Shown piece by piece: positions 31,361 to 61,195 of a stretch of 64,000 nucleotides of DNA. The stretch is from a virus. Its lineage: Duplodnaviria; Caudoviricetes. Under the pieces are notes generated by a model, which was not told the origin of the DNA, did not search any database, and was given only the letters and a program-made list of their open reading frames with translations. The first letter of the stretch is position 1. Each line of letters begins with the position of its first letter. Both the position numbers and the translations under genes were made by a program. The stretch is taken from IMG/VR virus record IMGVR_UViG_3300037418_002116; one strand, 5' to 3'.

Positions 31361-31737
31361 ATGGCGTTTTTAAAGTCTTCCAAAAATGATTTCAATTTAA
31401 CAATGCGGGCGACACGTTCTTTGCGAGCAAGAAGCTCATTCTCTACTTTTAAAAGGGCTTCTTGACGTTCCATATCAAGTATGGCTGTCTGCATTACGAA
31501 ATCATGGAAATCTTGATCAAGTTTAATTCTATTTGAGTGGAAAGTCTTACCACCTGTCCCCAATCCGAGTTTGAAACAATGACTTCCTTCGGATACGGTA
31601 ACACTAATATCTTTTCCATAGTGTACCGTAGCATATCCACTATAGTAGTCAGTACTAGTCACATGATGACGAATACAAGTATTAACTAGCTCTTCATAGA
31701 TTTTCTGATGTTCAATATCAGCTTCTTCTCTGGTCAT
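31357..31737 (-). CDS. Hypothetical protein
   Basis: 126 aa; coupled overlaps. Confidence 0.55.
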   Translation of the reverse strand: MTREEADIEHQKIYEELVNTCIRHHVTSTDYYSGYATVHYGKDISVTVSEGSHCFKLGLGTGGKTFHSNRIKLDQDFHDFVMQTAILDMERQEALLKVENELLARKERVARIVKLKSFLEDFKNAI

Positions 31738-32273
31738 TTACGGAGTCCCATTAGTTTGTTTGTGGAATAGGTGATGCCAGTACGCTTAGCGCACTTCTTC
31801 ACCATCATGTCGATTTTCAGTTTGGAAAAACCAGCAAAGAATGGCTTGCCATCGATATGGCACATTTCGTGCTGGATAATGCGAGCGGTCAAACCGGAAA
31901 GTGTGGACTCTTTCTCGTCACCGTCAATGTTCTGATATTGTACCGTGATTGTCTTGTGTCGCTCCACCTTGGCGATAAGGCCGGGAAAGCTCAAACATCC
32001 TTCATCCATTCCTTCCTTTTCGGAAGAAACTGAAACGATCTTTGGATTGAACATCGGCATTATCGATCCGGAATCACGACCGTTGCCGAACACAAACACG
32101 GCCCACGGGAGCCCGACTTGATTGGCCGATAGACCATAGCCCTTCATTTCCGAAAGAAGCTGTTTCAGCGTTTCGAATGTCTCTTGGGCATTTTGTGTTT
32201 CGAAGTCAAAAGGGATGGTCGGGGTGTACAGGATAGGGTTGTCGGAAGCGACAAGTTCAAGCTTTTCAGTCAC
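31734..32273 (-). CDS. def: Peptide deformylase
   Basis: GYGLSANQVG; EGCLSFP; QHEMCH. Confidence 0.93.
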   Translation of the reverse strand: MTEKLELVASDNPILYTPTIPFDFETQNAQETFETLKQLLSEMKGYGLSANQVGLPWAVFVFGNGRDSGSIMPMFNPKIVSVSSEKEGMDEGCLSFPGLIAKVERHKTITVQYQNIDGDEKESTLSGLTARIIQHEMCHIDGKPFFAGFSKLKIDMMVKKCAKRTGITYSTNKLMGLRK

Positions 32274-32443
32274 TCTTTGTATCTTTCAATGGCCCGGATA
32301 GCAGCACGGGCTTCGTCTTTGAATTCTTTCCAAAGTTCACATTTTGTAGAATCTTCGGAATCGCAAATCAGGCACAATCGCTTGTTGATAGTTTTGCCAG
32401 CCGCAAGGCATATCTCACGGCTGACTGATTCCACTTTCGACAT
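32270..32443 (-). CDS. Hypothetical Cys-containing protein (57 aa)
   Basis: Manual ORF MSKVESVSREICLAAG... Confidence 0.5.
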   Translation of the reverse strand: MSKVESVSREICLAAGKTINKRLCLICDSEDSTKCELWKEFKDEARAAIRAIERYKE

Positions 32444-33206
32444 GACGATATTTTTCCTCGATCCGGAGCGGATTGCTGCGAACCATGCGTGTCCGGATGA
32501 CCGGTTTCGTAGGATGATGTTCGAAAGGAATAGTCGCCAATTCGTTAATTGTCAACATCCTTTCTTCCGTAATCCGTGAAATTTCGGTGCCAACTCGGAA
32601 ACAGGCAGCATGTTCTTCAAAGAAATCTATGCCAAATGCCTTTATCATCTCCAATTTCTCTCTTGTGTTCTTACCCATGAGTTTGGAGTGGCCAAAGAGG
32701 TAATGCGCCGCCGATTGTACAGAATTTTTGAAGGCGTCTTGTTGACGCCAAAGGATCATATTGTTAGCTTCATCCATCGTCGGAACGTTGATGATTCTAC
32801 AATCGAACGACGGTATCGTTTTGGGTTCCTCTCCAAAATAAGCACAATATGAAAGGGTAAATTTGGCAGCGCACATAGCGGCCAACACAGAAGCGAGTTT
32901 CTGAATTTTACCATCGAACATGAATTGGCTTGGGCCTTCACACGGTTCCCAAATCAATGAAATTTCGTCCGATTGCGTGTACCCGAGTAGAGCCTTGGTT
33001 TCGTAGGCCAGATATTCGGTCGTGTCCTGCATACAAGCAGACATGTCACGGTCGAACGGACGCTTCATTCGTCTGGTAAAGCTGGAAAACGAGCGGCCAT
33101 CCAAACGGGCATAGATCGGGAGAGAGGTATCCAGTTTCTGTTCAGTGAAGACCTTTTCGTAGGTCTTCATGCGGTCACCGAAGTTGTCGTGGTGTTTTGT
33201 ACTCAT
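32415..33206 (-). CDS. Thg1-like 3'-5' nucleotidyltransferase
   Basis: ARLDGRSFSSFT..PFD; YTQSDEISL; FDCR; WRQQDAFKNS. Confidence 0.92.
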   Translation of the reverse strand: MSTKHHDNFGDRMKTYEKVFTEQKLDTSLPIYARLDGRSFSSFTRRMKRPFDRDMSACMQDTTEYLAYETKALLGYTQSDEISLIWEPCEGPSQFMFDGKIQKLASVLAAMCAAKFTLSYCAYFGEEPKTIPSFDCRIINVPTMDEANNMILWRQQDAFKNSVQSAAHYLFGHSKLMGKNTREKLEMIKAFGIDFFEEHAACFRVGTEISRITEERMLTINELATIPFEHHPTKPVIRTRMVRSNPLRIEEKYRHVESGISQP

Positions 33207-33405
33207 TACTTACATATTTGTAGAAATTATCGATTTCAGTATTGGAATCGCTTGCTGTTAGAATTAGTTGAGAAACCATGCGGCCTTTGAAATATACATC
33301 TTTAGAAAGGTACACATGAATGAATTCAACGCCGTCGAAGTCAGTACCGATGGTTGTATTCGGAAATGAAGCGGCTTTGACTTTACATTCAACGAATGTC
33401 GGCAT
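33175..33405 (-). CDS. Hypothetical protein
   Basis: TGATG-coupled start MPTFVECK at 33405. Confidence 0.55.
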   Translation of the reverse strand: MPTFVECKVKAASFPNTTIGTDFDGVEFIHVYLSKDVYFKGRMVSQLILTASDSNTEIDNFYKYVSNEYKTPRQLR

Positions 33406-34388
33406 CACGTATATGTTCTTTCCCGTTTTGTTGGCCAAAGAGGATAGTTTACGTGTTTGTAATGGCGGTCATAATAATCATCGCCATAATAAGAATGAGC
33501 ATTCTTCCATTCTTTATGGAACATATCATTGATTTCCTCTTGAGTCAAGCTGAAACTATTCTGTTCATCTTTCGTTTTGTGGAAGAAGTATTTTCTATCA
33601 CCATAGGGAAGTTCTGGCAGAGGTTCCGGATTTGGAGTTATAACAGCTTTATCGCTAAGCTTTCGTGCAAATGAATACACACGATAATTTGGATCGTGTG
33701 TAAACTGTGTTACAAACACCAAATATGGTTTTGCGTTTTGCTCAATAGTATAATATGTTACTCTCGTATCTTTATATCCATAAGAGTAATAGTTTTTCTT
33801 TTGTTTGCCATCCGGGTCGCTGTGATCGATTTGTTCGCAGCTTGCCGAAGAAACATAAAATGTTCCGATGTAGCGACCGCTAACCGCTGGCGACTCAACC
33901 ATATCACCGACTTCCAGTTGCTTACGCTCTACCGGATTAAGGAACTTGACGTATCTTTCATCTGATATAGAGATCAGATGATTGATAGCGCCGATACGGC
34001 CCCAAAGATATTGGCCTTGGAATTCGCCCTTCAAAACATCTTGGGTCTGTAACAATTGTGAGAGATTGTGTGCGGTGATTTCAAGTTGGAAGCCACGGGG
34101 ATCATTGATCCTGAACCATTTGTTCGACGTTTCATATCGAGTGACAGAGTGATCGAACTTGAAGCCGGTAATAGGCGTGTTCTCTATCTGGATTGCCGGA
34201 AGGCGTTTGTCCAGTTCCGGGTTTTTTGCATAATAGTAATCTTGGTTCTTGCCGGACCAATGATCGACTGTCTCTTTGCGCTTCTGTGCGGCGGCATCGG
34301 TTCCGTCCGGAACTGCAAACCCGAGAATATCACCACCATCATTCCTACGACCGACATAGAGTGTTTTAGGAAAATTTGTAATTTCCAT
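33405..34388 (-). CDS. Conserved phage hypothetical protein
   Basis: 327 aa; INDPRGFQLEIT..NL..G..LWGR motif. Confidence 0.65.
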   Translation of the reverse strand: MEITNFPKTLYVGRRNDGGDILGFAVPDGTDAAAQKRKETVDHWSGKNQDYYYAKNPELDKRLPAIQIENTPITGFKFDHSVTRYETSNKWFRINDPRGFQLEITAHNLSQLLQTQDVLKGEFQGQYLWGRIGAINHLISISDERYVKFLNPVERKQLEVGDMVESPAVSGRYIGTFYVSSASCEQIDHSDPDGKQKKNYYSYGYKDTRVTYYTIEQNAKPYLVFVTQFTHDPNYRVYSFARKLSDKAVITPNPEPLPELPYGDRKYFFHKTKDEQNSFSLTQEEINDMFHKEWKNAHSYYGDDYYDRHYKHVNYPLWPTKRERTYT

Positions 34389-34405: not shown

Positions 34406-34430
34406 AAAAAGCAGCCCATGGAAGGGCTGC
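34406..34430 (-). terminator. Intrinsic terminator after the permuted tRNA-like RNA
   Basis: GCAGCCC-TTCCAT-GGGCTGC-TTTTT. Confidence 0.8.
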
Positions 34431-34457
34431 ATAAAAAATAAAATAGAAGGAGGATTT

Positions 34458-34544
34458 AAGTGGGGCGTCCTTACCAGACTAGACGACACCGTTCATAGCG
34501 TTGTGAACAGCGGCAGGATTCGAACCATACGTTTCCCCAGACTT
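34458..34544 (-). ncRNA. Circularly permuted tRNA-like RNA (YrlA/Y RNA-like)
   Basis: Order: TGGGG, T arm (GG-TTCGAAT-CC), acceptor-like stem closed by a loop, D arm (GTCTAGTCTGGTAAGGAC), CCCCA; own promoter and terminator. Confidence 0.72.
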
Positions 34545-34546
34545 TA

Positions 34547-34575
34547 TATATACGACATTTTCAAAGAAATGTCAA
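34547..34575 (-). promoter_or_regulatory. Sigma70-type promoter for the tRNA-like RNA
   Basis: TTGACA-N17-TATATA. Confidence 0.72.
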
Positions 34576-36288
34576 CTAAAATGTTTCAACGGTTGAAAAA
34601 TTTCCTTTTTTCACCACTTTCATAACCCGGTCGAAATTATCCACCATATTTTCACGATGGGAAATGACTATGATATTCGTTTCCTCGCCCATGGAGCGCA
34701 GGATTTCGAATACGTACTTGATACCATCTTCGTCCAAAGAGGAATCACCAACTTCGTCCAGAATCAGCAAATTGGTAGCCATCGAATTTTTCTTTCGGGC
34801 GATCTGCCTCCAAGCGAAAAGAATAGCCAAATCAATACGTTGCTTTTCACCTTCCGAGAAATTTTCATAAGAGAAATCGTCCCGGTAACGGGATTTGATA
34901 GACTCCTGAAAATTTTCGTCCAGATTGAAGCTCACATAAAAATCCATGGCCGAAAGATACTCATTAATAAGCTCATTCATATAAGGAATATATCGCTGCA
35001 CGATAGCGGTTTTTAGACCGTTGTCTTTCAGCATGAGCGCCGCCACGTTTTCGACTTCCCGCTCATTCATGAGTTTCTGTTTCGTGTTGAAATATTCCGT
35101 TACCAGCTTCCGGGCCTTTTTGAGGTTAGCCTTGGTGGTTTCCTCTTGGGTCGCATCCGAGTCATCAACCAAATCAGATTCGAGCTTGGTGATGAATTTG
35201 TTGTTGATGTGGACAGAGGATTGAAGCTCTGAAATCTTGCGGTTGGTCCGGTCGAGAGCATCGATGACCGCACCCTTTTTTTCAAGGTGTTCCGCAATCT
35301 GAATGAGCTTGGCCTTTTCCAGTTTGATCGTCTCTTCTAGAGGCGTATATGAAGTCGTGTGCGTATGGATTTCTTCGGCCTTAAACGTGCCGTCGATGCT
35401 CTGTTTGCATGTCGGGCAGTGATCGTTCTTTTCATAGAAGGCAACCCGGTTTTTATGCTCCCGCACCTTCTGTTCCATGGTCTGGGTGAACGACTCAATC
35501 GTCTTCTGCTTTTCGATAAGCTTGGCAAATTTGGCCTTCTTATCGTCAAGCGTTTCCTTTTCGGTCAAAAGCGTTTCAATCTGCTTTTGACTTACTTCAT
35601 TTTCTCCAAGCAGCCGGTCAATCTCTGAACGGGCACGATCCTTTCTATCCTGCTTCTGTCTATTGATCGATTCAAGAAAATCTTCATTCATCTTGACTTT
35701 CTCTTGTTCGATCTTCAAGAGCCCTTCGACTTCTTTCAGATGCTCTCGATTTTCCTCTTGCTGTTCCTTGAGCAAGGAATTCATGCGAGAGAATACAGAG
35801 ATATCAAGCAGGTCTTCAATGATTTCACGACGCTGTTGCGCCGTCAAACGCATAAACGGAACATAGTTGTTCGATCCGAGTACGACAATCTGTTTGAAAG
35901 AATTGAAGTTCAGGTTCAGCACATTTTCTTCAATGTACTTCTGATAATCCTTTGACGATGCAGACTGATTTATCAGAGTGCCGTCCATATAGATTTCAAA
36001 CACCGCTGGCTTAATACCACGACGGATCATGTAGGTTTTACCCTTCGTCTCGAATTCAATTTCGACCAAAAGGTTTTTGCCATTGATGGAGTTCACCAAT
36101 TGTGGCTTATTGATTTTGCGAAAGTCCTTTCCGAACAACGCAAACGTCAGCGCCGAAATCATGGTCGATTTACCAGCGCCGTTTTGCCCAATGATGAGTG
36201 TTCTCGGATGTGAACTTAGGTCTATTTCGACGGGATCATTACCCGTTGCTAGAAAATTCTTGTAGAGTAGACGTTTAAAAATTACCAA
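34576..36288 (-). CDS. 46: Recombination endonuclease ATPase subunit (gp46)
   Basis: GQNGAGKST; zinc hook CPTC; FSEGEKQRID; LDEVGD. Confidence 0.95.
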   Translation of the reverse strand: MVIFKRLLYKNFLATGNDPVEIDLSSHPRTLIIGQNGAGKSTMISALTFALFGKDFRKINKPQLVNSINGKNLLVEIEFETKGKTYMIRRGIKPAVFEIYMDGTLINQSASSKDYQKYIEENVLNLNFNSFKQIVVLGSNNYVPFMRLTAQQRREIIEDLLDISVFSRMNSLLKEQQEENREHLKEVEGLLKIEQEKVKMNEDFLESINRQKQDRKDRARSEIDRLLGENEVSQKQIETLLTEKETLDDKKAKFAKLIEKQKTIESFTQTMEQKVREHKNRVAFYEKNDHCPTCKQSIDGTFKAEEIHTHTTSYTPLEETIKLEKAKLIQIAEHLEKKGAVIDALDRTNRKISELQSSVHINNKFITKLESDLVDDSDATQEETTKANLKKARKLVTEYFNTKQKLMNEREVENVAALMLKDNGLKTAIVQRYIPYMNELINEYLSAMDFYVSFNLDENFQESIKSRYRDDFSYENFSEGEKQRIDLAILFAWRQIARKKNSMATNLLILDEVGDSSLDEDGIKYVFEILRSMGEETNIIVISHRENMVDNFDRVMKVVKKGNFSTVETF

Positions 36289-42210: not shown

Positions 42211-42287
42211 CGGCGGTTCGTACAGCGGCCTAGTACCCCCTGCTCATAACAGGTGCAACGCCGGTTCGAATCCGGCACCGCCAACCA
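42211..42287 (+). tRNA. tRNA-Met(CAU) with C1:A72 mismatch
   Basis: CGGCGGT/ACCGCCA; CT-CAT-AA loop; GCCGG-TTCGAAT-CCGGC; CCA. Confidence 0.88.
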
Positions 42288-42288
42288 A

Positions 42289-42385
42289 ATTCCTCCGTTA
42301 CGGGCATGTACCGTCACTTGGAGTCCCCTATATTTCGCCGGTCGGATAGGGCACCGTTCAATTCGGGAAACGGAGGAGTCGACCA
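42289..42385 (+). ncRNA. Structured tRNA-like RNA candidate
   Basis: 11-bp closing stem, internal hairpins, CCG-TTCAATT-CGG T-loop-like arm, ends ACCA. Confidence 0.42.
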
Positions 42386-60824: not shown

Positions 60825-60833
60825 TTTTTCTGC

Positions 60834-60862
60834 TTGACTCTTAAAAGCGAATAGATTATACA
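60834..60862 (+). promoter_or_regulatory. Promoter for tmRNA
   Basis: CTTGACT-N17-TATACA. Confidence 0.7.
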
Positions 60863-60867
60863 TATAC

Positions 60868-61195
60868 TCGTTGTGATGAAGACGACTGAAAGGTATTCAG
60901 GACTCGGGGGCGGAACCCGACTAGTCCACCACAACCAGATAGAGGGACGAAAGCCCGGCCAATAACACGGCGTCGTATGATGGCTGGCGTTCTATCTGGT
61001 TATGATGGGCTAGAAACAGGATCGACTGGTACGTAATAGGAAGTTGGAGCAACCGGCATTGTACCGCCGTTATCGGGCTAAACACAATAAGAGACAACGA
61101 TAACTTCGTTCCTCTGGCAATCGCTGCCTAATCAGCAGTAGCCAATGAGTTTTGGCGGTTGAACTTGGAAACAGAATCAACCGCCGCTTCTATTT
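60868..61195 (+). ncRNA. ssrA: Circularly permuted two-piece tmRNA
   Basis: Acceptor piece ends TCGGG-GGCGGAA-CCCGA-CTAGTCC-ACCA (60931); coding piece starts GGGCTAG (61007) with G3:U70; tag DNDNFVPLAIAA-stop at 61093-61131. Confidence 0.93.

What the first reader, a model, noticed from the sequence alone, without database searches (positions are those of the whole stretch)
34406..34575. Stand-alone circularly permuted tRNA mimic (YrlA/Y RNA-like)
Seen on the minus strand: promoter, then AAGUC-UGGGG, AAAC, T arm GUAUGG-UUCGAAU-CCUGC, CGCUGUUCA-loop-UGAACGGUG (acceptor stem closed by an 8-nt loop, no CCA), D arm GUCUAGUCUGGUAAGGAC, CCCCA-CUU pairing back to the 5' end, then a terminator. The tRNA is opened at the anticodon and sealed at the acceptor end. 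Known: bacterial YrlA Y RNAs have this topology and bind Ro60/Rsr; permuted tRNA genes are otherwise known from algae and archaea. No Rsr/TROVE gene is in this window. Inference: a decoy for tRNA-targeting or uncharged-tRNA-sensing defences, a partner for host or phage Rsr, or a precursor needing ligation (joining the ends would give a CU-UAA-A loop).
Basis: partly seen in the sequence, partly recalled or inferred. Interest (0 to 1): 0.85.

Follow-up and report, generated by a model that had tools for sequence, protein, structure and literature searches.

The report
Handle-less permuted tRNA mimic in phage
A soil T4-like phage has a small RNA gene that folds like a glutamate tRNA with its ends moved to the anticodon side; it is related to the tRNA-like half of bacterial and phage Y RNAs, but lacks their Ro60-binding handle and always sits just before one unknown phage protein gene.

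Summary
On the minus strand, a TTGACA-17-TATATA promoter is followed by an 89-nt module (34456-34544), a 30-nt tail and an intrinsic terminator. The module reads closing stem, AAAC, T arm, 8-bp acceptor stem sealed by a 10-nt loop, UC, D arm, closing stem.

ARAGORN and Rfam do not call it. A covariance model built here finds it once in the window (68.6 bits). Covariation supports three of the four stems; the D stem never varies.

The body is of the bacterial tRNA-Glu type. The same module forms the tRNA-like half of Y RNAs in jumbo phages whose genomes encode Ro60/TROVE, and it lies directly upstream of TROVE genes in two metagenome contigs. The window's lineage (four genomes) has no Y stem and no GNCGAA motif. 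I found no TROVE gene in the window or in the two relatives' contigs I could search.

In all four genomes the RNA lies 28-67 nt upstream of a 327-aa protein. That protein belongs to a very large unannotated phage family which elsewhere neighbours GluRS, Thg1, RtcB and kinase genes. Two complete related genomes lack both RNA and protein.

My reading: a stand-alone effector-type tRNA mimic, probably an RNase P substrate, acting in tRNA repair or conflict. Its function is untested. This scan has already noted many YrlA-like permuted modules on other DNA.

The parts
34547..34575 (-). Sigma-70-type promoter: -35 TTGACA (34575-34570), 17-nt spacer, -10 TATATA (34552-34547). The inferred start is near 34543-34540.
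   Evidence: Read directly from the sequence. The same promoter stands before the modules in L001 and L135, and a TTGACT version in L002. The start site is inferred, not measured.
34456..34544 (-). Circularly permuted tRNA-Glu-like module (the whole R1 match)
   Evidence: R1 gives 68.6 bits, E 7.2e-21, the only strong hit in the window. The minimum-energy fold gives the four-way junction. Covariation.
34535..34539 (-). 5' strand of the closing (anticodon-stem-like) helix, UGGGG
   Evidence: Pairs with 34461-34465. Four of the five pairs show compensatory changes within the lineage.
34513..34530 (-). T arm: 5-bp stem with one bulged base, loop UUCGAAU; preceded by the 4-nt variable loop AAAC (34531-34534)
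   Evidence: The bulge is present in W and L002 and absent in L001 and L135.
34487..34512 (-). Acceptor-like hairpin: 8 bp, loop A-CAA-CGCUAU (34504-34495). The predicted RNase P site lies between U34495 and G34494.
   Evidence: Five of eight pairs are compensatory in the lineage and eight of eight in the family. The cleavage site is inferred by analogy with M. smegmatis YrlA (PMC4201824).
34467..34486 (-). U8-C9 linker and D arm, GUCU-AGUCUGGUAA-GGAC, of tRNA-Glu type (U11-A24, U13-G22)
   Evidence: The D stem is invariant in all 19 family members. The same arm is seen in the bacterial tRNA-Glu genes caught by the pattern scans.
34461..34466 (-). G26 and the 3' strand of the closing helix, CCCCA
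34431..34460 (-). Pyrimidine-rich 3' tail (CUUAAAUCCUCCUUCU...)
   Evidence: Related tails follow the module in L001, L135 and L002. Its role is unknown.
34406..34430 (-). Intrinsic terminator: 7-bp stem (6 G-C), 6-nt loop, then a U run
   Evidence: It is absent in L001 and L135, where the RNA runs into the next gene.
33405..34388 (-). P0002, a 327-aa protein of a large unannotated phage family; the candidate partner or co-inherited gene
   Evidence: Adjacent to the RNA in all four genomes. Absent together with the RNA from complete genomes G009 and G010. No Pfam, NCBIfam or PADLOC match. AF2 pLDDT 90.8 with no PDB fold match.
32415..33206 (-). Thg1-like 3'-5' nucleotidyltransferase (tRNA-His guanylyltransferase family), in the same transcription direction
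   Evidence: Pfam Thg1 8.8e-28, PHROG 4717 5.6e-72. Thg1 recurs near P0002-family genes in L143 and L147. It is also present in G009, which has no RNA.

Best explanation
Shown: this is a real, conserved small-RNA gene. Its product has every secondary-structure element and every conserved tertiary-contact base of a bacterial-type tRNA-Glu body: U8, A14, G18-G19, the UUCGAAU T loop, U13-G22 with A46, and no residue 47. The order is circularly permuted. The 5' and 3' ends lie where the anticodon loop would be, and the acceptor end is closed by a loop. The module is homologous to the tRNA-like (effector-binding) half of a family of phage and bacterial Y RNAs. Here it stands alone, with no Ro60-binding handle. 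I found no Ro60 gene in the window or in the two relatives' contigs searched.

Inferred mechanism:
1. Host RNA polymerase transcribes the RNA early, from a near-consensus promoter.
2. The RNA folds into an L shape.
3. RNase P probably cuts it between U34495 and G34494. The loop looks like a tRNA trailer plus leader: a G:C first pair, A, then C-(C/A)-A, 4-9 nt, then an invariant UAU before G.
4. That would leave a two-piece molecule with a CCA-type 3' end, as shown for M. smegmatis YrlA.
5. The RNA then acts as a tRNA-Glu look-alike without an anticodon. It would bind or occupy a factor that reads the tRNA elbow, D stem and acceptor end.
6. The most likely partner is the product of the gene that always follows it (P0002). 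This would operate in the phage's tRNA maintenance and repair setting (Thg1, own tRNAs, tmRNA) rather than through Ro60.
For: Structure and homology:
- Searches support the fold and its conservation.
- tRNA-Glu type: the D arm and AAAC variable loop equal those of bacterial tRNA-Glu genes. The D stem is invariant while the other stems covary.

Kinship with Y RNAs:
- The jumbo-phage members carry Y/sbRNA-like stems. Rfam RF01656 scores 46.1 bits, above its gathering score, on L074 and 23 bits on L043.
- Their complete genomes have TROVE.
- L098 and L087 lie immediately upstream of TROVE genes.

No handle, no Ro60:
- The sequence shows neither a Y stem nor a GNCGAA motif.
- Searches found no YrlA match and no TROVE gene.

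RNase P likeness:
- The loop features are conserved in six of six lineage modules.
- N-CCA follows the 3' strand in 8 of the 19 family members.
- Published precedent exists in PMC4201824.

Linkage to P0002:
- The RNA and P0002 are adjacent in W, L135, G001 and G002, even though the G002 protein is only 33% identical.
- Both are absent from complete genomes G009 and G010.
- There is no terminator between RNA and gene in L001, L135 and L002.

tRNA context of the P0002 family:
- GluRS immediately upstream.
- A short GluRS-like gene nearby.
- Thg1 in three separate contexts.
- RtcB, AAA_33 kinase with a phosphoesterase, and tRNA clusters.
Against: - There is no transcript, processing or binding evidence. 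The only RNA-library contigs are single 151-nt pieces, and none covers the core.
- The RNA-P0002 pairing is confined to one lineage. Fourteen loci holding ten more distant P0002 homologues have no strong R1 hit, so the RNA is not a general partner of the family.
- The joint absence from G009 and G010 could be a single insertion or deletion event.
- The 8-bp stem makes the RNase P site uncertain.
- W has CAA, not CCA.
- P0002 has no recognisable RNA-binding domain. Only weak likeness was found: an SH3/Sm-like barrel at Z 5-5.7 and low-probability OB-fold rows.
- Invariance of the D arm could partly reflect recent common descent.
Confidence: 0.5

Rival explanations
1. It is an ordinary Y RNA (YrlA type) that works by binding the host's Ro60/Rsr, gating it or tethering it to an exonuclease, although the phage has no rsr gene.
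For: The module is homologous to that of Ro60-linked Y RNAs. Rhizosphere alphaproteobacteria such as Rhizobium etli carry Rsr and YrlA (PMC4201824). The phage's alpha-type tmRNA suggests such a host.
Against: Every element that defines Ro60 binding is missing. The transcript starts at the closing stem, there is no GNCGAA(N)G motif, and there is no long bulged terminal helix. Rfam YrlA gives no hit even at E 10. In Y RNAs the tRNA-like part is the effector side, not the Ro60 side (10.1101/312249).
Confidence: 0.12
2. It is a cis-acting leader. On this reading the tRNA shape recruits RNase P or blocks exonucleases, so that the 5' end of the P0002-Thg1-deformylase mRNA is set or stabilised (or the 3' end of the gp46 message), and the released RNA has no function of its own.
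For: In L001, L135 and L002 the modules run straight into the P0002 gene with no terminator. One RNA-library read spans the tail, the terminator and the start of P0002 in W. tRNA-like punctuation is a known principle (10.1101/312249, introduction).
Against: W has acquired a good terminator between RNA and gene. The invariant tRNA-Glu-specific D arm and variable loop are more than a processing signal needs. The same module serves as a trans-acting domain in Y RNAs.
Confidence: 0.18
3. It is a permuted tRNA gene in the strict sense. The ends would be joined, for example by a phage RNA ligase, and the acceptor loop opened, giving a decoding tRNA.
For: The topology matches permuted tRNA genes. The body is complete, an N-CCA is present in relatives, and T4-like phages often carry RNA ligases.
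Against: The letters that would form the anticodon loop are not conserved between orthologues: W has CUUAAAU, L002 has UCUAAUU, and L001 e2 has CCUUAAU. They pair with the 5' leader instead. The transcript starts within a few bases of the stem. The acceptor stem has 8 bp. No bulge-helix-bulge motif is present. G002 already has a normal tRNA-Glu.
Confidence: 0.03
4. It is a decaying remnant with no present function, derived either from a tandem tRNA-Glu pair or from a two-module Y-like RNA.
For: W has lost module e1, which L135 and L001 retain. W also has a bulged T stem and CAA instead of CCA. Tandem tRNA-Glu genes that could give rise to such modules are common.
Against: Compensatory changes keep all stems paired across four genomes whose neighbouring protein has diverged to 33% identity. 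The promoter is conserved. All tertiary-contact bases are intact.
Confidence: 0.07

Closest known systems
YrlA (Y RNA-like A; Rfam RF02553; Chen et al. 2014, PMC4201824; structure in Wang et al. 2018, 10.1101/312249)
   Same: The module order is the same: closing stem, variable region, T arm, loop-closed acceptor stem, D arm, closing stem. The tRNA tertiary bases are kept. Members with a tRNA-length acceptor stem are cut by RNase P and carry CCA (M. smegmatis). YrlA also occurs in phages.
   Different: There is no GNCGAA(N)G motif, no long terminal Ro60-binding stem, and no rsr gene within 4 kb or anywhere in the relatives' contigs. The D arm is GUCU/GGAC (tRNA-Glu type), not the GCUC/GAGC of the Rfam consensus. 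The variable region is 4 nt, not a V stem-loop. Rfam gives no hit.
Y RNAs of jumbo phages and metagenomic phages with the same tRNA-Glu-type module
   Same: The tRNA-like core is homologous: R1 scores are 59-84 bits and up to about 75% of bases are identical. N-CCA is present in the acceptor loop.
   Different: Those RNAs add a long Y/sbRNA-like stem (GGNCCGA...GGGUUAUC paired with ...CAACUUGCC). They also occur with a TROVE gene, either adjacent or elsewhere in the genome. The window's RNA has neither.
Circularly permuted tRNA genes of Cyanidioschyzon merolae and other algae
   Same: The 3' half precedes the 5' half, with a short linker between the acceptor strands.
   Different: Those are matured, through a circular intermediate, into decoding tRNAs with a conserved anticodon loop. 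Here no anticodon loop can be formed consistently.
Two-piece (permuted) tmRNA, such as the one in this window at 60830-61185
   Same: The T arm and acceptor 3' strand with CCA come before the acceptor 5' strand. Processing in the linker gives two base-paired pieces.
   Different: There is no tag reading frame, no pseudoknots and no G3:U70. A full D arm is present.

Membership tests
YrlA (RF02553) | tRNA-like domain in the order T arm, closed acceptor stem-loop, D arm, closed by pairing of the flanks | tested here: met
YrlA (RF02553) | GNCGAAN0-1G motif near the 5' end (the Ro60/Rsr contact) | tested here: not met
   Read from the sequence. The leader is only AAGUCU before the stem, and the sole CGAA lies in the T loop.
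YrlA (RF02553) | Long terminal stem formed by the 5' and 3' ends | tested here: not met
   Only 4-5 bp plus at most 4 more. The promoter abuts the stem.
YrlA (RF02553) | Encoded within about 4 kb of a TROVE/Ro60 gene on the same strand | tested here: not met
   No TROVE in the window (tblastn with three phage TROVE proteins). None in G001 (85% complete) or G002 (100% complete) by HMM. The controls gave hits.
YrlA (RF02553) | Score at or above the Rfam gathering threshold (69 bits) | tested here: not met
   No YrlA match at E up to 10 on W or L002. 14.5 bits on the jumbo-phage relative L043.
tRNA (RF00005) | Linear cloverleaf with an anticodon loop and a free acceptor end | tested here: not met
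   ARAGORN and Rfam do not call it. The arm order is permuted.
Permuted tRNA gene (algal type) | Ends that can be joined into a conserved 7-nt anticodon loop, giving a decoding tRNA | tested here: not met
   The flank letters differ between orthologues and pair with each other.
Two-piece tmRNA | G3:U70 alanine identity and a tag reading frame after the tRNA-like domain | tested here: not met
   The third pair is A-U. Only a 30-nt tail precedes the terminator.
   68.6 bits. The model was built with this sequence among 19, so a match is partly by construction. Orthologues score 73-84 bits.
RNase P substrate | Cleavage 5' of the first acceptor-stem base | not testable with these tools
   Only the sequence features are present: U at -1, a G:C first pair, A, then CCA or CAA.

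The most novel reading that the evidence does not exclude
The permuted tRNA-Glu mimic and the P0002 protein form a Ro60-independent RNA-protein unit. On this reading P0002, a member of a very large uncharacterised phage family, reads tRNA-Glu-shaped RNA. The phage supplies a private anticodon-less, RNase P-processed copy as a cofactor, decoy or substrate. It would work with Thg1-type end repair to keep translation running against host attack on tRNA.
Probability: 0.18. Interest if true: 0.8.

Novelty: new variant of a known kind. Interest (0 to 1): 0.58.

Why it matters
Y RNA tRNA mimics are known only as one half of a Ro60 particle, and the factor that their tRNA-like half binds is still unidentified (10.1101/312249). 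A natural version stripped down to that half alone offers a clean handle on the question. It is conserved by compensatory change, expressed from its own promoter, and tied to a single unknown protein gene. A pull-down with this 90-nt RNA, or with P0002, could name the missing effector.

The work also shows that such modules can be built on a tRNA-Glu body, a sequence class that Rfam's YrlA model does not detect. It further points to a huge unannotated phage protein family that sits among tRNA repair and tRNA-Glu genes.

Tried and rejected
- **ARAGORN and Rfam.** Run at gathering thresholds and at E up to 10. Nothing was called on the element.
- **Exact 23-mer scan of IMG/VR.** No hits.
- **Looser T-loop-to-D-arm patterns.** These mostly returned tandem tRNA genes and had to be sorted by hand. 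L092, L100, L110 and L123 are tandem tRNA-Glu genes, not mimics.
- **TROVE, GluRS and HisRS Pfam searches of the relatives' contigs.** All negative.
- **Phage tRNA-Glu as the source of the module.** Rejected, because the G002 tRNA-Glu sequence is unlike it.
- **Thg1 as a specific partner.** Weakened, because G009 keeps Thg1 without the RNA.
- **The DUF7873 lead from earlier notes.** None of the genes flanking the RNA that I scanned, nor neighbours of other family members, matched any DUF. I could not search whole contigs because I lacked the accession number.
- **RNA evidence.** Two metatranscriptomes hold only isolated 151-nt pieces at depth 3, none over the core. This is uninformative.
- **What I took for a terminator in L002.** It lies inside the P0002-like reading frame.
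- **P0002 function.** A single-sequence AF2 run failed (pLDDT 36). The alignment-based model is good (pLDDT 90.8), but the following searches gave only relatives without function or weak small-barrel likeness:
  - PDB by sequence
  - Foldseek against PDB
  - VIA-align wide
  - AFDB clusters
  - ESM Atlas
  - NCBIfam
  - PADLOC
- **R1 search of 14 loci holding ten distant P0002 homologues.** No strong hit.
- **Minimum-energy folds of the tandem and extended forms.** Unreliable, because the near-palindromic T arms pair with each other.

Full report
**1. What is there**

Read on the minus strand, the gp46-like SbcC gene (34576-36288) ends inside a near-consensus promoter. The -35 TTGACA lies at 34575-34570, followed by a 17-nt spacer and the -10 TATATA at 34552-34547. 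A few bases later the RNA begins.

The parts, in order:
- Closing-stem strand UGGGG.
- A 4-nt variable loop, AAAC.
- A T arm with the canonical UUCGAAU loop. Its stem has 5 bp with one bulged base.
- An 8-bp helix, CGCUGUUC paired with GAACGGUG, closed by the loop A-CAA-CGCUAU.
- The dinucleotide UC.
- A D arm, GUCU-AGUCUGGUAA-GGAC.
- G, then the closing strand CCCCA.
- A 30-nt pyrimidine-rich tail.
- A good intrinsic terminator at 34430-34411 followed by a U run.

The unconstrained minimum-energy fold returns this four-way junction, with a z-score of -2.26. ARAGORN and Rfam call four tRNAs and a permuted alpha-type tmRNA in the window, but nothing at this site, even at E 10.

**2. Relatives in the same place**

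I searched with the gp46-like protein and later with the downstream protein. This gave three further genomes of the lineage.
- G001/L001: gp46 is 94% identical. Two tandem modules follow three inserted genes.
- L135: two tandem modules lie directly between gp46 and the downstream gene.
- G002/L002: gp46 is 78% identical. One module is preceded by about 190 nt of structured RNA that has no Rfam match.

The promoter is conserved in all of them.

Six modules aligned (A3) keep 96.2% of cells paired. Eleven of 22 pairs show changes on both sides. Sliding the partners drops pairing to 30-57%. These modules were collected by synteny, not by pairing, so this is the cleanest test.

The D stem and its U-G pair never vary. 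The loop also keeps fixed features:
- a G:C first pair;
- an unpaired A;
- C-(C/A)-A;
- 4 to 9 variable bases;
- an invariant UAU before the first G.

**3. A wider family**

Pattern scans of IMG/VR and JGI metagenomes returned many tandem tRNA genes. They also returned some twenty further permuted modules with the same body.

Nineteen of them aligned (A1) give 89.5% paired cells, against 68% in shuffles. Compensatory changes occur in 8 of 8 acceptor pairs, 3 of 5 T-stem pairs and 3 of 5 closing pairs. The D stem is invariant.

One caveat applies. The more distant members were picked partly because their acceptor strands pair, so helix 3 of A1 is biased. The T and closing helices are not.

The covariance model R1 finds:
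- one strong hit in the window (68.6 bits);
- two in G001 and one in G002;
- none in the complete genomes G009 and G010 of more distant T4-like relatives.

**4. The body is a tRNA-Glu body**

Three features match the bacterial tRNA-Glu genes that the same scans caught:
- UC at positions 8-9;
- D stem GUCU/GGAC, giving U11-A24 and U13-G22;
- the four-base variable loop ending AAC.

Examples are L092, L100, L110 and L123. By established knowledge of E. coli tRNA-Glu, these features make up the "augmented D helix". I recall this from the literature and did not test it here.

The phage's own tRNA-Glu in G002 is quite different, so the module is not a copy of it. An origin from the 3' half of one and the 5' half of the next of two tandem, CCA-encoding tRNA-Glu genes would explain the topology. 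It would also explain the N-CCA that follows the 3' strand in 8 of the 19 members. This origin is an inference.

**5. Relation to Y RNAs**

In seven jumbo-phage contigs the module is embedded in a long stem formed by the flanks. One strand reads GG-N-CCGA...GGGUUAUC and the other reads ...CAACUUGCC.
- Rfam's nematode stem-bulge (Y RNA homologue) family RF01656 matches that stem. It scores 46.1 bits on L074, above its gathering score, and 23 bits on L043.
- Both complete jumbo genomes tested, and a third that is only a fragment, encode TROVE/Ro60 proteins.
- In two metagenome contigs (L098, L087) the module lies immediately upstream of a TROVE gene on the same strand. This is the arrangement that defines YrlA (PMC4201824).

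So the module is the effector-side, tRNA-like half of a Y RNA class (10.1101/312249). Rfam's YrlA model barely sees this class, scoring 14.5 bits on L043, because its consensus D arm is of the GCUC/GAGC type.

**6. What the window's lineage lacks**

- The transcript starts at the closing stem.
- There is no GNCGAA(N)G motif and no long terminal helix.
- There is no TROVE gene in the window.
- There is no TROVE gene in G001 (85% complete) or G002 (100% complete). The control genomes gave hits.

It therefore fails four of the defining features of YrlA while keeping the fifth. I file it as a handle-less variant, not as a YrlA member.

**7. What it is tied to instead**

In all four genomes the module or modules lie 28-67 nt upstream, on the same strand, of a gene for a protein of about 300-330 aa (P0002).
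- This holds even in G002, where that protein is only 33% identical while gp46 is 78%.
- L001, L135 and L002 have no terminator in between. W has acquired one.
- The complete genomes G009 and G010 lack both the RNA and any P0002 homologue. G009 nevertheless keeps the neighbouring Thg1-like gene.

P0002 has no Pfam, NCBIfam or PADLOC match. Yet it belongs to a very large family: 3,749 clusters at 50% identity with E below 0.001. Members occur in cultured Pseudomonas, Bacillus and enterobacterial phages, all annotated as hypothetical.

The neighbourhoods of distant members are telling:

| Locus | Neighbouring genes |
|---|---|
| L136/L137 | A 472-aa GluRS ending 2 nt before the gene |
| L138 | A 305-aa GluRS-like gene nearby |
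| L139/L140 | A tRNA cluster with an RF-1-domain protein |
| L143 | AAA_33 kinase and a phosphoesterase upstream; Thg1 two genes downstream |
| L147 | AAA_33 kinase and Thg1 |
| L144/L145 | RtcB and a methyltransferase |
| L146 | A PP-loop ATPase |

The window itself has Thg1-like and peptide deformylase genes just downstream. None of these distant loci has an R1-type module. The RNA is therefore a lineage-specific addition to this protein, not its universal partner.

An alignment-based AF2 model of P0002 is confident (pLDDT 90.8, pTM 0.78), but it matches no solved fold. The best matches were:
- Foldseek E 0.12;
- VIA-align Z 5.7 to small SH3/Sm-like barrels of ribosomal protein type over residues 154-266;
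- AFDB, which finds only unannotated relatives.

**8. Mechanism, with the status of each step**

Shown:
- the fold and its conservation;
- the tRNA-Glu type of the body;
- homology to Y RNA modules;
- absence of the Ro60 handle, and no Ro60 gene found in the contigs searched;
- linkage to P0002.

Inferred:
- (a) Early transcription by host polymerase, from the promoter quality.
- (b) RNase P cleavage at U34495/G34494 and trimming or repair to a CCA end. The grounds are the loop features and the M. smegmatis precedent, where a 7-bp stem is cut in vivo and CCA is added. The 8-bp stem here leaves the exact site open.
- (c) Action as an anticodon-less tRNA-Glu look-alike for a factor that reads the elbow, D stem and acceptor end, most plausibly P0002. 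The grounds are adjacency and the family's GluRS and tRNA-repair context.

I put about 0.5 on this package. Most of the doubt lies in step (c). The rivals are a host-Rsr-dependent Y RNA (0.12), a cis-acting processing or stability leader for the downstream operon (0.18), a true permuted tRNA precursor (0.03) and a functionless relic (0.07).

**9. Novelty**

The topology and the idea of tRNA-mimicking Y RNAs are published, including in phages. Earlier notes of this scan list hundreds of YrlA-like permuted modules on other DNA, some beside other proteins. I treated those notes as leads only.

What is new here:
- a tRNA-Glu-type sequence class that Rfam does not detect;
- a naturally handle-less, stand-alone form kept by compensatory evolution;
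- its fixed association with a large uncharacterised phage protein family that lives among tRNA-Glu and tRNA-repair genes.

This makes it a new variant of a known kind. It is of moderate to good interest because it makes the unknown effector of the Y RNA tRNA-like domain experimentally approachable.

Noticed in passing
window 32415-33206 (-): A Thg1-like 3'-5' nucleotidyltransferase gene (Pfam 8.8e-28) lies two genes downstream of the RNA. Thg1 also lies near P0002-family genes in two unrelated phage contigs (L143, L147).
   Followed up: partly
window 33405-34388 (-): P0002 belongs to a very large phage protein family: 3,749 clusters at 50% identity, and 246 cultured phage records, all annotated as hypothetical. 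There is no Pfam model. The AF2 model is confident (pLDDT 90.8) and matches no solved fold. Invariant residues are N70, D96, P97, F100 and G121.
   Followed up: partly
L002 4750-4938: In G002 a GC-rich, hairpin-rich RNA domain of about 190 nt with no Rfam match replaces module e1 between the promoter and the tRNA mimic. Its 5' end (AGAAUUGG) can pair with UCUAAUUCU just after the module.
   Followed up: partly
L037, L043, L051, L055, L074 (jumbo-phage contigs of 280-480 kb): These carry Y RNAs with a metazoan or nematode sbRNA-like Ro-binding stem (Rfam RF01656 is above its gathering score on L074) and a tRNA-Glu-type permuted module. They lie in or near tRNA clusters and 130-200 kb away from the phage's TROVE gene.
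   Followed up: partly
L088/L095 4274-4472 (-): Two tandem permuted modules sit in a 195-326 kb contig, downstream of an unannotated ORF and a ComF-like PRTase gene.
   Followed up: no
L124 1800-2150 (Verrucomicrobiae MAG) and L094/L099/L101/L109: A permuted module with a tetraloop-capped acceptor stem is flanked by further half-tRNA-like pieces, including an arm with a UUC anticodon-like loop. This may be part of a larger composite RNA.
   Followed up: no
window 60830-61185 (+): A phage-encoded permuted alpha-type tmRNA (126 bits). G002 has one too, with the tag ANDNVAHEFAVAA.
   Followed up: no
window 42246-42363 (+): A weak R1 hit (26 bits) starts in the T arm of tRNA-Met and reaches a D-arm-like hairpin 56 nt on. 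It is probably a tRNA plus chance, but I did not examine it.
   Followed up: no
window 31734-32273 (-): A peptide deformylase gene follows Thg1. Together with the tRNAs and the tmRNA, it shows that the phage carries a sizeable translation-support set.
   Followed up: no
L136/L137 1581-4035: A phage or metagenome contig has a full-length GluRS gene ending 2 nt before a P0002-family gene, preceded by a Band_7 gene. It may be an operon linking this family to Glu-tRNA.
   Followed up: no
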